Virus record (IMG/VR): IMGVR_UViG_2703718819_000007
DNA from: a virus
Lineage: Duplodnaviria; Heunggongvirae; Uroviricota; Caudoviricetes
Strand: one strand, 5' to 3'
Length of the DNA: 64,000 nucleotides
Numbering within the stretch: position 1 is the first letter of the stretch; every line of letters begins with the position of its first letter. Of this stretch, positions 21,001 to 24,000 are shown piece after piece. Made by a program: the position numbers.

Positions 21001-24000
21001 ACCTATGGTTTCAACTCGCTACGCTCGCTACGTCTATTCTACGGTGGTCAGCGCCAGTAAATCCGTCAAGTACCACGCCAGTAAAGCTGGTTCATGATAA
21101 AGGACCCTAAACTATCACTATAGGGAAGACCAACCTTGCCTCTGAGTCTGATGCGTCAGAACATGCGAGCATCTGGTCAACCGACATTAAGTATCTCTCC
21201 TAAGTAATCAAGGCCCGTGACCGCCTCTGTCAGACCTCCTGTATGACCTCCAGCTCGTTAGCGTTCTTTAGTCGTCTCGGTTAGTAGCTCGTCTACTCAC
21301 TACATTGGCTTAAGTCTATCACCGCTCACCATCTGGAAGTCCTTACAGCTCGTCCTGACATGCGGTCGCACCTTTATACGTACATGGAGAACATGGTCAC
21401 TCCAGACCGTCAACATTTAACCATTCACTTTCGTTAAGCACTTTCTGATGGGTCCGTTTAGGATGCGTCTGAATGGTGCGGACTCCATGTGGAGACAGAA
21501 AGTGCTTTACCAAAGGAGCATCTTTGTATGAATACCGAATTACCAGTAACTAACCGCCAGTTCTTAATCATCCTGCTGACCAATGCAGAGTCCAGTGTCG
21601 ATTGCTGTCGCTATAACTTAGACCTGCTGAAGTTATCCCGATGGTATGCCCAGGCGGAAGACTGGGACTATGAGAAAATCCGGGAGATGTACGCGGAGCC
21701 TATCCAGTCATACCTCCAGACACACACCGAGGAAGAGCTGAAGCGTGGCCTGCAGGACATCTTCTATTTCAACAATCCTTACACCTGTGAGGGTGACTCA
21801 GAAGAGATGGATTGGATAGCGTCACGCTCTGATGCCGACTTGAAGCACATCTCTAACGCGATGATGCAGGTGGAGAGCAAATGGTCTCGCCGACTTCAGG
21901 TCCTAACTGAGGATTACGAAAACGGCACCTTTGATAAGCTGGTCCCACCTGATACCGAACGTCTTCAGGCGAAAGCTGACCAAGAACAGCGCTTCAAGTC
22001 CTTTGCCGAAGCTCTGGCGGGAGGTGCCTCTTATGACTTCTGACAATAAGCAGGAATACACCATTCATATCTTCGGTCAGGACATCACCAGTCAGGACGG
22101 ATTGTTTCGACTCGATGAAATTCGCCGGGTCGGCATTCAGATTGGCAAAGTAGAAGACACCGAGTCGACACAGTACAAGCGTTTTGCTCAGACCAAAGTT
22201 GGAAAGCTACTGAGGAATAGGCAGAAAATCCGCCTTATCCGAATGGGTGAACTCGGGTCTACCGTCCTTGCTGACCCCGCCGCTACTGTAGAGTTTGGTC
22301 GCTGGCTGGACTTTGAGTACGGACTGGCAGTCTCTGAAGCCTTCGTGTCTATGACCTCCAGCGCCACCGTGCAGTCTGCTGTAGCGTCTGCTGAGGACAT
22401 CAAGCCGGAGACCAAGGAATTCATCCAGCGTCATGGCACAGGCCTCTACATCGCCGGACGTGAAGTCTCACAGGCTGAGTATTCAGACTATCAAGCTGTG
22501 ACCGCTGGTCGCTGTGAGTGGAGGTAAGTAATCATGGCTATGATTGACCCACGCACACCTGAGGGCCGCATGACTCTCCGTTACCGTGGCTACCGGACTG
22601 AAGTCCTCCTCAGAGAGCTTGGTCTAGACCCGGAAGATGAGACCCGCCAGCACCAATCCCGAGACGAGCTGATAGCGCAACTGGTCGCTATGAAACTGTC
22701 TGCCTAATTTTAAAACCTTTTGAGATGACCGATGCGGGGAGACCCGTAGGCGCTACTGCGTCTGCGATACCGATAGTCTCAACTCTCAAGAGGAGAATTA
22801 CCTATGATGTTCAACAACAACAACTGGAAGCTGTCAGTCACCGACATCAACCTTTATGAAAACACTGTGAGTCTGGACGGTCAGCCCTATCCGCTGTCGC
22901 TCGCTATCAAGACCCTCATTCCGGGCTACCTGTCAGGCCTGCCGTCTACCAGCCGCGAGGCAATGGAGTTACTGGAAGCTCTGGCTGAAGCTGGCGTAGC
23001 TATTGGCAACTTCTTCAGTAATGACCTGATGACCGCCTATGGTCGCCGCCAGCTTAACAAACGAGCTGAGGCTGAGCGTATCGCTAAAGAGCTGGCATCT
23101 CAGAAAGAGCGTATGCGTGAAGAGAACATGACCGATGCAGAGTGGCAGAAAGAGCTACAGCGCCGCGAACAAGTCAAAGCTGAACGCCGGACCTATGGTG
23201 AGAACCTCCGCAGTGCAACCCATTCCGCTGGTCGCTCCCGTGCCGCTATTGTCGCTGACCTTGAGTCAGGCGGTAACTGGCTGGACAGCTTATAAGACAC
23301 ACAGTCCCTGACCCGATGTTAGGGACTCCTCAGTTTTGAGGACTCACAGTATTTAAACTAATTTAGGAGATTGATTATTATGACGATTAAAGACGCTTTC
23401 CAGTTTGGCATTGAGCCAGTACGCATCACCGATACCGACAACATTCAGGTCAATGAAGGTCTGCCGACTAACGCTGACCCGCAGGTCTACGCCCTCCAGT
23501 TAGCTAAGACGGTTAAGGCTATGCTGAACGGTGTACTTAAGGACGCTCAAGAGAACATCCCGTTCCCTGTAGAAGTCCTGCCGACCCGTAACAGCTTACC
23601 GACCCCAATCATTGCCCACACTCTGGCTGACCGCTCTGTGGTCGTTCCTGTCCGTGGTGGCAAGCGACCTGAAGTCGTGACCATTCCGTCTGGACAAGAA
23701 ATCGTGGTCGAACCAATCGAGCAGGCTATTCTCATCTCTGAGCAGACCACTCTCTGGGACGCCAAGTCATCCACCGGATTCACTCAGGGCACACTTCAGC
23801 AGGACGCTATGAACATCTGTGAGAATGTGGTCCGTACCATCAACGCTCACATGGTCGACGTTCTGGAATCCTCTAAGCTGCTGAAGACCGTAGAGCTTCC
23901 TGTCCTGACTGGTAGCCTGACCGCTAAGGCAGACGCTATCATGGACGCTCTGTATGAGAACACAGAGCCTTCTTTCGGTTCTGAGGTGTCTAACTACGGT

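What the first reader, a model, noticed from the sequence alone, without database searches (positions are those of the whole stretch)
22033..22527. KilA-N-like DNA-binding protein as a candidate islet regulator
The 164-aa protein carries a KilA-N-type C-terminal motif (GSTVLADPAATVEFGRWLDFEYGLAVSEAFV). KilA-N domains are typical of phage anti-repressors and regulators and of satellite derepression systems, which is consistent with a helper-responsive element.
Basis: partly seen in the sequence, partly recalled or inferred. Interest (0 to 1): 0.35.

Follow-up and report, generated by a model that had tools for sequence, protein, structure and literature searches.

The report
Divergent KilA-N-like protein in phage-responsive islet
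The gene is real and encodes a very divergent relative of the phage KilA-N DNA-binding proteins; it lies in a swappable cassette of a 6.7-kb integrated islet, just downstream of a promoter for the RNA polymerase of K1F-like (T7-family) phages, so it is probably made only on infection, and its target is unknown.

Summary
The ORF at 22033..22527 (+) is a real gene of 164 aa. It has a GGAGG ribosome-binding site, overlaps the upstream gene by 11 nt, has 44 homologues in Enterobacterales, and shows dN/dS of 0.18-0.32. The quoted motif is present at residues 75-105, which is the end of the N-terminal domain and not the protein's C-terminus.

The gene lies in a 1.15-kb cassette. In otherwise 98.6-98.8% identical islets this cassette is replaced by KilA-N, Rha-family or AP2/HNH-like proteins, which resembles the "Bro zone" of satellites. 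About 900 bp upstream is a match to the Kayfunavirus RNA-polymerase promoter, conserved in all six E. coli islets checked.

The protein family does not co-occur with the islet's tandem repeats, which weakens the idea that it binds them. Verdict: a divergent KilA-N-like protein, probably induced by the helper phage. A regulatory role is plausible but unproven.

The parts
22033..22527 (+). Target gene: 164 aa plus stop codon
   Evidence: Translation. 44 homologues. dN/dS 0.18-0.32.
22020..22024 (+). GGAGG ribosome-binding site, 8 nt before the ATG. The ATG overlaps the upstream ORF's stop (22041-22043), which suggests translational coupling.
   Evidence: Sequence and ORF list.
22054..22362 (+). 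KilA-N-like domain, about residues 8-110. The AF2 model shows three short strands, helices, a beta-hairpin and two long helices.
   Evidence: hhalign to the Pfam-verified KilA-N protein P0175 covers residues 5-118. hhalign to the islet KilA-N family covers residues 9-115. AF2 pLDDT is 80-94 over this span.
22255..22347 (+). It aligns with the GTW..A..YAMWVSP.FYL.V..AF block of canonical KilA-N proteins.
   Evidence: BLASTP and hhalign alignments.
22159..22341 (+). Intragenic mosaic segment (residues 43-103). It differs deeply between E. coli alleles (pS 0.69, pN 0.355), while residues 1-42 and 104-164 have no amino-acid change.
   Evidence: Codon counts of the window against L002 and L124. Alignment A1.
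22363..22524 (+). C-terminal tail (residues 111-164): predicted helix-helix-hairpin-helix ending in a conserved GRCEW. It is replaced by a short basic tail in the Enterobacter/Pantoea subfamily. No family match.
   Evidence: AF2 secondary structure, alignment, Pfam.
21528..22043 (+). Upstream partner gene: 171 aa from the ATG at 21528, or 184 aa from the GTG at 21489. No family match. Present in the E. coli cassettes and absent in the Enterobacter and Serratia islets.
21391..22539 (.). Swappable cassette (the 'Bro zone'). In islets that are otherwise 98.6-98.8% identical it is replaced by a 252-aa KilA-N gene. Other islets carry a Rha-family protein, an AP2/HNH-like protein, or a hybrid of a 122-aa KilA-N protein plus the target.
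   Evidence: blastn boundaries. Annotated sister islets.
21106..21128 (+). Promoter of the Kayfunavirus (K1F-like) phage RNA-polymerase type, CCTAAACTATCACTATAGGGAAG, with predicted +1 at 21123. It lies upstream of the partner/target operon, and no terminator-like site separates it from the target.
   Evidence: 26/27 match to the phage F promoter before the capsid gene. Conserved in all 6 E. coli islets checked. Terminator scan.
21428..21515 (.). Inverted repeat specific to the cassette (20-nt arms, 90% complementary, 48-nt spacer) at the cassette's 5' end. It could be the protein's own binding site or an RNA-processing hairpin; this was not tested.
   Evidence: the repeat finder I3 and cassette boundaries.
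18536..25257 (.). The islet: 6,711 bp between 11-bp direct repeats AGTTCCAGATG (18536-18546 and 25247-25257) inside a ynfE-type DMSO/selenate-reductase gene. All its genes are on the + strand and the integrase is at 18612-20234.
   Evidence: Listed as the integrative elements Eco892.7.ynfE and Sfl13.8.ynfE in PMC7192596.

Best explanation
The gene encodes a highly divergent member of the KilA-N/APSES-type ('Bro network') DNA-binding proteins. It has an N-terminal KilA-N-like domain of about 110 residues and a private C-terminal tail of about 55 residues.

It is the second gene of a two-gene cassette, translationally coupled to the first. The cassette occupies the variable 'Bro zone' of a 6.7-kb islet that carries an integrase and is inserted in ynfE.

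The operon is preceded by a promoter for the RNA polymerase of K1F-like (Kayfunavirus, T7-family) phages. I infer that the protein is silent in the uninfected cell and is made once such a phage has expressed its polymerase.

My proposed action is that it binds a specific DNA site. That site is more likely in the infecting phage genome, or linked to the cassette, than in the islet's conserved repeats. Binding would redirect phage or islet gene expression or DNA processing, in the way the PLE satellite's CapR represses its helper's capsid promoter.

The deeply divergent, recombining central segment (residues 43-103) and the wholesale cassette swaps would then be changes of target specificity.

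Shown here: the gene is real, the remote KilA-N homology, the cassette swapping and the promoter match. Inferred: the timing of expression, DNA binding, and the identity of the target.
For: Homology
- The profile search of 1.84 billion proteins finds a tiny family plus one distant full-domain hit, P0175 (E 8.4e-4).
- P0175 is a Pfam KilA-N protein (E 8.4e-9, 35.7 bits against a cut-off of 23.8), and it links to P1 KilA by tblastn (E 1e-3).
- hhalign of the family against P0175 gives 96.2% probability and E 2.2e-9. Against the islet KilA-N family it gives 71% probability and E 3.7e-5. BLASTP to the canonical islet KilA-N protein gives 3e-4.

Structure
- The AF2 model has pLDDT 82.
- In BFVD, a 'KilA protein' ranks third (E 9.3e-3).

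Same slot as Bro-network proteins
- KilA-N 252 aa.
- Rha-family 252 aa.
- AP2/HNH-like 363 aa (phrog_99 at 2e-18).
- A hybrid of a 122-aa KilA-N protein plus the target.
- A Rha domain fused in frame to the target's N-terminus.
- This matches the 'Bro zone' of PICI, HE-PICI, P4 and PLE satellites described in PMC10111431.

Helper-driven expression
- The sequence CTAAACTATCACTATAGGGA at 21107-21126 equals the promoter consensus of roughly 40-kb Kayfunavirus genomes.
- Phage F has nine such sites, all on one strand.
- The site is conserved in all six E. coli islets checked.
- No terminator-like site lies between it and the gene, and no convincing sigma-70 promoter lies nearby.

Target probably not the islet repeats
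- Islets L124 and L125 have the protein but no TTGACAT repeats. Islets L001 and L123 have the repeats but not the protein.
- Islets with 98.6-98.8% identical flanks carry non-orthologous proteins in the slot.

Specificity switching
- In residues 43-103, pS is 0.69 and pN is 0.355. The flanking residues have pN of 0.
Against: - No curated profile detects the domain. Pfam, PHROGs, NCBIfam and PADLOC are all negative.
- PDB sequence searches are negative.
- Foldseek against the PDB gives nothing significant (best E 0.18).
- hhalign to the sister-islet KilA-N family reaches only 71% probability.
- The homology case therefore rests mainly on one intermediate sequence.
- No binding site has been identified, and DNA binding is an inference from family membership.
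- A Serratia islet carries both a target homologue and a separate KilA-N protein, so the two may not be functionally interchangeable.
- The promoter is a sequence match only. No transcription data exist.
Confidence: 0.5

Rival explanations
1. The protein is the islet's own regulator or origin-binding protein. It would bind the islet's tandem repeat arrays (20449-20648) to control islet transcription or replication.
For: Three repeats of about 82 nt lie 1.4 kb upstream in the same islet. The islet has no recognisable replication protein, so a DNA-binding initiator would be useful. P1 kilA sits in the lytic-replicon operon with repL (annotations).
Against: The family occurs in islets without these repeats (L124, L125). 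The repeats occur in islets that have KilA-N or AP2-like proteins instead (L001, L123). The repeats vary together with the neighbouring 122-aa gene cassette and not with this one. T7-type promoters need no activator (established knowledge of T7-family transcription).
Confidence: 0.12
2. It is an antirepressor-like or other protein-binding factor. The KilA-N-like domain or the tail would bind a protein, such as a repressor, a host factor or a helper protein, and not DNA. This would resemble Ant-type proteins of temperate phages.
For: Canonical KilA-N relatives are often annotated as antirepressors. The gene is translationally coupled to a partner protein of unknown function.
Against: There is no ANT, KilA-C or P22_AR domain. 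No repressor gene is recognisable in the islet. The proposed inducer is a virulent T7-family phage, which has no repressor to inactivate (inference).
Confidence: 0.13
3. It is an abortive-infection or host-killing cargo. The cassette would be a defence hotspot, and the protein, like P1 KilA, would be toxic when induced by the phage polymerase, killing the cell or blocking the phage.
For: The slot is hypervariable in otherwise identical islets, as defence hotspots of satellites are. P1 KilA is known for lethality to the host (established knowledge). The canonical KilA-N protein in this slot weakly matches a PADLOC candidate system, PDC-S22 (5.9e-7). One alternative occupant resembles an HNH nuclease.
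Against: The target itself has no PADLOC hit and no enzymatic domain. The family is a core gene, in the same position, in islets across genera. That pattern fits a life-cycle function better than accessory cargo.
Confidence: 0.15
4. It is not a KilA-N relative at all. It would be an unrelated small alpha/beta or winged-helix-like protein whose similarity to KilA-N is convergent or due to chance.
Against: The library-wide significant hit is a Pfam-verified KilA-N protein, and the alignment covers the whole domain. An independent hhalign and BLASTP hit the KilA-N protein that occupies the same genomic slot. The conserved W/aromatic/hydrophobic pattern of the motif lines up.
Confidence: 0.1

Closest known systems
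KilA-N domain family (Pfam PF04383; founding member phage P1 KilA), homologous to the fungal APSES/Mbp1 DNA-binding domain
   Different: It falls below every curated threshold. It shares about 18-23% identity with true members. Its C-terminal tail is private, with no KilA-C, ANT or nuclease partner domain. The family is restricted to small islets of Enterobacterales, with only two full-length 50%-identity clusters among 1.84 billion proteins.
252-aa KilA-N protein of sister ynfE islets (WP_000107258.1, E. coli 47-1826)
   Same: It occupies exactly the same cassette slot, downstream of the same phage-type promoter, in an islet that is 98.6-98.8% identical elsewhere. There is weak but detectable sequence similarity.
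   Different: It is a single gene in place of a two-gene cassette. It passes Pfam KilA-N and has a different C-terminal half. The identity is 21%. A hybrid islet (ECZP248) carries a truncated copy of it next to the target.
'Bro zone' / Bro-network proteins of PICI, HE-PICI, P4 (eta) and PLE satellites (PMC10111431)
   Same: The position is right after the integration module. There is rampant domain and gene swapping among KilA-N, Rha and AP2-HNH types. [quoted passage not shown]
   Different: The host element here is much smaller (6.7 kb). It lacks AlpA, a primase/replication zone and recognisable late genes. It is wired to a T7-family phage RNA-polymerase promoter rather than to host-polymerase regulation.
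CapR of the Vibrio cholerae satellite PLE (PMC8096241)
   Same: This is a functional analogy only. CapR is a satellite-encoded DNA-binding protein related to the DNA-binding modules of phage homing endonucleases (Bro-N, KilA-N, T5orf172). It acts on a virulent helper's DNA.
   Different: No sequence relationship was tested or claimed. CapR's target, the ICP1 capsid promoter, is known. No target is known here.

Membership tests
KilA-N domain (Pfam PF04383) | Match to the curated family HMM at or above the gathering score | tested here: not met
   No hit for the protein at E up to 10. Only 1 of 27 family members hits, at E 0.11.
KilA-N domain (Pfam PF04383) | Remote homology shown by profile-profile comparison or an intermediate sequence | tested here: met
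   Family profile to P0175: E 8.4e-4 across the library. P0175 to Pfam KilA-N: 35.7 bits against a cut-off of 23.8. hhalign: 96.2% probability, E 2.2e-9. hhalign to the sister-islet KilA-N family: 71%, E 3.7e-5.
KilA-N domain (Pfam PF04383) | APSES/KilA-N fold | tested here: inconclusive
KilA-N domain (Pfam PF04383) | Sequence-specific DNA binding | not testable with these tools
   Needs EMSA, DAP-seq or ChIP.
Bro-network / 'Bro zone' protein of phage satellites | Located after the integrase module and subject to domain or gene swapping with KilA-N, Rha, Bro-N and AP2-HNH proteins | tested here: met
   Cassette boundaries. Alternative occupants. Rha-target fusion P0044. Definition taken from PMC10111431.
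Antirepressor (Ant-type: KilA-N/Bro-N/AntA plus an ANT or P22_AR C-terminal domain) | A recognisable antirepressor C-terminal domain and a cognate repressor | tested here: not met
   No ANT, KilA-C or P22_AR domain in the protein, and no repressor-like gene in the islet.
Phage satellite (context of the gene) | Integrase plus att sites, with no full set of virion genes | tested here: met
   Integrase PF00589 / phrog_1. 11-bp att repeats and a 6,711-bp element. Only a gp6.7-like small protein is recognisable.
Phage satellite (context of the gene) | Induction by, and packaging through, a helper phage | tested here: inconclusive
   Sequence evidence only: Kayfunavirus promoters, a 27/28 match to a phage hairpin, and a roughly 113-nt similarity to the phage end region (score 41 against shuffles of 20.8 +/- 2.2). 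No experimental data.

The most novel reading that the evidence does not exclude
The protein is the specificity factor, induced by the helper phage, of a previously undescribed family of minimalist (6.7-kb) satellites of virulent T7-family (Kayfunavirus) phages in Enterobacterales. In this reading:
- it is transcribed by the helper's own RNA polymerase;
- it binds helper DNA through a KilA-N-like domain whose central segment is exchanged by recombination to track helper variants;
- it thereby diverts the helper's expression or DNA-processing programme towards the islet, or blocks the phage.
Probability: 0.25. Interest if true: 0.75.

Novelty: new variant of a known kind. Interest (0 to 1): 0.42.

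Why it matters
On its own, the protein extends the KilA-N/Bro network to a family that current profile libraries miss. That is useful for annotation but not surprising.

It matters more because of where it sits. It is the first variable module downstream of a T7-family phage-polymerase promoter, in a tiny integrative element that also carries look-alikes of the phage's end region. I found no paper describing a satellite of T7-like coliphages in the library searched.

If the islet is such a satellite, this cassette is the obvious place to look for the factor that decides which phage is parasitised or blocked. The natural set of swapped cassettes (KilA-N-like, KilA-N, Rha, AP2/HNH) in near-identical backbones is a ready-made experiment.

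Tried and rejected
Searches with the protein that gave nothing
- Pfam, PHROGs, NCBIfam and PADLOC scans gave no meaningful hit. The weak OMPdecase match (E 0.066) is noise.
- PDB sequence searches with the protein and with the family profile returned only noise: AHA1 at E 0.37 and ribosomal protein L23 at E 0.96.
- tblastn of the target against 50,697 phage records found no match, so the family is not phage-borne in that collection.
- Foldseek against the PDB was not significant. The afdb50 library was not available.

Searches with other islet proteins
- The 331-aa and 79-aa islet proteins gave nothing useful against phage records.
- The AF2 model of the 331-aa protein failed (pLDDT 38.6), so I could not test whether it is a capsid or scaffold protein, and I did not search with that model.
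- I tested whether the partner protein or the AP2-like and Rha-like occupants share a domain with the target or with the KilA-N protein. They do not.

Other checks
- Rfam on the islet gave no family.
- The TTGACAT repeats are not good sigma-70 promoters.
- I rejected the idea that the motif is a 'C-terminal' feature of the protein. It is internal.
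Full report
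**1. The observation**

Window 22033-22527 (+) translates to a 164-aa protein followed by a stop codon. The quoted string GSTVLADPAATVEFGRWLDFEYGLAVSEAFV is present at residues 75-105. It is therefore internal: it closes the N-terminal domain and is not the protein's C-terminus.

The start codon is well supported.
- The ATG has a GGAGG 8 nt upstream.
- It overlaps the stop of the preceding ORF (21489/21528..22043) by 11 nt.
- RefSeq annotates the same start in sister loci.

The gene is real.
- It has 44 homologues, all in Enterobacterales.
- There are 38 invariant columns among 27 full-length members.
- Pairwise dN/dS is 0.18-0.32.

**2. Is it KilA-N-like?**

The direct test fails.
- Pfam, PHROGs, NCBIfam and PADLOC report no KilA-N match.
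- Scanning all 27 members one by one gives KilA-N for a single member, at E 0.11.
- PDB sequence searches are empty.

Four indirect lines agree with each other.
- (a) A profile of the family, scored against 1.84 billion representatives, finds almost nothing outside the family. The one distant full-domain hit is P0175, at a library-wide E of 8.4e-4, aligned over profile positions 3-123.
  - P0175 passes Pfam KilA-N (35.7 bits against a cut-off of 23.8).
  - It also reaches P1 KilA by tblastn.
- (b) hhalign of the family against P0175 gives 96.2% probability and E 2.2e-9 over 115 columns.
- (c) In sister islets the same genomic slot holds a canonical 252-aa KilA-N protein (Pfam E 1.3e-9).
  - BLASTP of the target to it gives 3e-4.
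  - hhalign between the two families gives 71% probability and E 3.7e-5.
  - Mbp1 and Bqt4 are APSES-type domains. From established literature (Iyer, Koonin and Aravind 2002, recalled and not re-read here), APSES domains are the eukaryotic relatives of KilA-N.
  - In BFVD, a 'KilA protein' ranks third (E 9.3e-3).

The structural scores are weak, and Foldseek against the PDB is insignificant. I therefore call the fold test inconclusive and the homology probable, at about 0.8. It rests mainly on one intermediate sequence.

**3. Where the gene sits**

The window is E. coli chromosome. A 6,711-bp element is bounded by 11-bp direct repeats AGTTCCAGATG at 18536 and 25247. It interrupts a ynfE-type reductase gene.
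- 28 of 5,426 complete E. coli genomes carry at least 80% of it.
- The integrative element in ynfE is already listed as Eco892.7.ynfE and Sfl13.8.ynfE in the TIGER survey (PMC7192596). No function is given there.
- All genes are on the + strand. In order they are: the integrase, a 122-aa protein, the 171/184-aa partner, the target, then proteins of 57, 163, 331, 79 (T7 gp6.7-like; phrog_1320 at 1.8e-11), 52 and 51 aa.

**4. The cassette**

Against the sister islet L001 the element is 98.6% identical up to 21390 and 98.8% identical from 22540 onwards. The 1.15 kb in between, which holds the partner and the target, is replaced by the KilA-N gene.

Other islets fill the slot differently.
- A 363-aa protein that RefSeq calls AP2-domain, matching HNH-endonuclease PHROGs.
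- A 252-aa Rha-family regulator.
- A hybrid of a 122-aa KilA-N protein overlapping the target gene.

One database protein is a Rha domain fused in frame to the target's N-terminus.

This is the behaviour described for the 'Bro zone' that follows the integration module in PICI, HE-PICI, P4 and PLE satellites (PMC10111431).

Swapping also occurs inside the gene. Between E. coli alleles, residues 43-103 are deeply divergent (pS 0.69, pN 0.355). Residues 1-42 and 104-164 show no amino-acid change.

The family is also a positional core gene in related islets.
- One is in Enterobacter, at the same kind of site.
- One is in Serratia, at another site. That islet also has a separate KilA-N protein.

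**5. Expression**

The sequence CCTAAACTATCACTATAGGGAAGA at 21106-21129 lies about 900 bp upstream of the target. A second site at 20677-20699 shares TATCACTATAGGG.

A scan of viral contigs for TATCACTATAGGGA mostly returned contigs of about 40 kb, some with several copies. These contigs are Kayfunavirus, the K1F-like members of Autographiviridae.
- Their sites read CT(A/T)AACTATCACTATAGG(G/A)A.
- Phage vB_EcoP_F has nine such sites, all on one strand.
- The islet site matches the one before its capsid gene at 26 of 27 positions.

The promoter is conserved in all six E. coli islets examined, whatever the cassette. No terminator-like site separates it from the target, and no convincing sigma-70 promoter is nearby.

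I infer that the helper's RNA polymerase transcribes the gene after infection. It also makes the protein an induced effector rather than the sensor.

**6. What it probably does**

As a KilA-N/Bro-network protein it is most likely a sequence-specific DNA binder.

Their distribution does not support this.
- L124 and L125 have the protein without the repeats.
- L001 and L123 have the repeats without the protein.
- The repeats travel with the neighbouring 122-aa gene cassette.

Near-identical islet backbones tolerate non-orthologous proteins in this slot. The cognate site is therefore more likely to be in one of two places:
- inside the cassette itself, for example the inverted repeat at 21428-21515;
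- outside the islet, in the infecting phage.

I favour a helper-directed role, analogous to PLE CapR (PMC8096241). In that view the hypervariable centre of the domain and the cassette swaps are changes of specificity.

My confidences are about 0.8 for KilA-N-like homology, about 0.7 for phage-polymerase-driven expression, and about 0.35 for a helper-directed DNA-binding role. Overall I put the combined explanation at about 0.5.

The rivals are an islet origin or repeat binder, an antirepressor-like protein binder, toxic or abortive cargo, and 'not KilA-N at all'. Each is scored in the rival list.

**7. Novelty and verdict**

The protein is a divergent, so far unannotated branch of a known kind. 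Finding a Bro-network protein in a satellite-like element is expected, so the finding itself is of moderate interest.

The unusual part is the setting:
- a minimalist islet wired to T7-family phage promoters;
- sequences in the islet that resemble the phage's end region;
- no description found in the paper library.

Noticed in passing
window 20677-20699 and 21106-21128 (+): Two promoters of the T7-family phage RNA-polymerase type share TATCACTATAGGG. The second matches the Kayfunavirus (K1F-like) consensus CTAAACTATCACTATAGGGA. Phage vB_EcoP_F has nine such sites. Both islet sites are conserved in sister islets.
   Followed up: yes
window 20312-20339 (+): The hairpin GGAGGGTGATAATAATCATAATCCCTCC matches Kayfunavirus F at 27 of 28 positions. 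The phage copy lies about 120 bp downstream of the promoter that follows the terminase gene. The hairpin is conserved in 6 of 7 sister islets. It may be a mimic of an RNA-processing or packaging signal.
   Followed up: partly
window 25009-25121 (+) and 18670-18680 (+): A stretch of about 113 nt near the islet's right end resembles the non-coding, presumably genome-end region of Kayfunavirus F (local score 41; 300 shuffles gave 20.8 +/- 2.2 with a maximum of 30). The phage's CTATCTGTAT, which resembles a T7 concatemer-junction pause signal, recurs just inside the left end. After excision the two would lie on either side of attP. This may be a packaging or concatemer-junction mimic.
   Followed up: partly
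window 18536-25257: The islet is 6,711 bp long. Six copies make 40.27 kb, which is within the 39.2-41.3 kb range of the Kayfunavirus genomes found. This is only arithmetic, but it would fit packaging as a concatemer, as reported for the PICMI satellites.
   Followed up: no
window 24372-24611 (+): A 79-aa protein resembles the T7 gp6.7 virion-assembly / host-range protein (phrog_1320 at 1.8e-11; Pfam PF11653 at 0.0057, below its cut-off). It is the only islet protein with a phage structural relative.
   Followed up: partly
window 20436-21102: A second swappable cassette holds the three roughly 82-nt TTGACAT...CTGTGAGTCAC repeats, promoter 1 and the 122-aa gene (phrog_23123). In L124 and L125 it is replaced by a 155-aa gene, with 3 x 45-nt repeats found in L125 (L124 not scanned). 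In ECZP248 it is replaced by an HNH endonuclease.
   Followed up: partly
L124 2964-3010 and L125 3000-3045: Some islets carry two adjacent phage-type promoters of different specificity: GCACTCACTATAGGG, which is closer to T7 itself, followed by the K1F-type AACTATCACTATAGGG. This suggests responsiveness to more than one phage group.
   Followed up: no
L126 4795-4825 and 5760-5850; L128 5420-5470: The related islets in Enterobacter and Serratia have different promoter-like sequences of the T7 family upstream of the target homologue (for example AATTGTCATCACTATGGGGAGA and ATCACTATAGAAAA). The islet family may track the local T7-like phages in each genus.
   Followed up: no
window 23371-24366 (+): A 331-aa protein is conserved in all islets (330-402 aa in other genera). 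It has no family match and no phage homologue. Its AF2 model failed (pLDDT 38.6). Its function is unknown, and it is the largest gene in the islet after the integrase.
   Followed up: partly
window 17520-18686 and 25200-26657 (-): The islet splits a ynfE-type reductase gene. The paralogue next to it (15036-17462) is intact. The TIGER survey lists ynfE among genes whose integrity may be regulated by excision of an integrative element.
   Followed up: partly
L130 (crustacean metagenome contig) 827-2225: P0175, the KilA-N protein that links the family to Pfam, lies immediately upstream of a DNA_pol_A fragment. This arrangement resembles free-standing DNA-binding or homing-endonuclease genes near the polymerase gene of T7-like phages.
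   Followed up: no
sister islets H1, H4, H15-H19, H22, H23, L131, L132: Many copies of the islet carry IS66, IS3, IS4, ISSen4 or IS1203 insertions. This suggests that a fraction of the islets are decaying.
   Followed up: no
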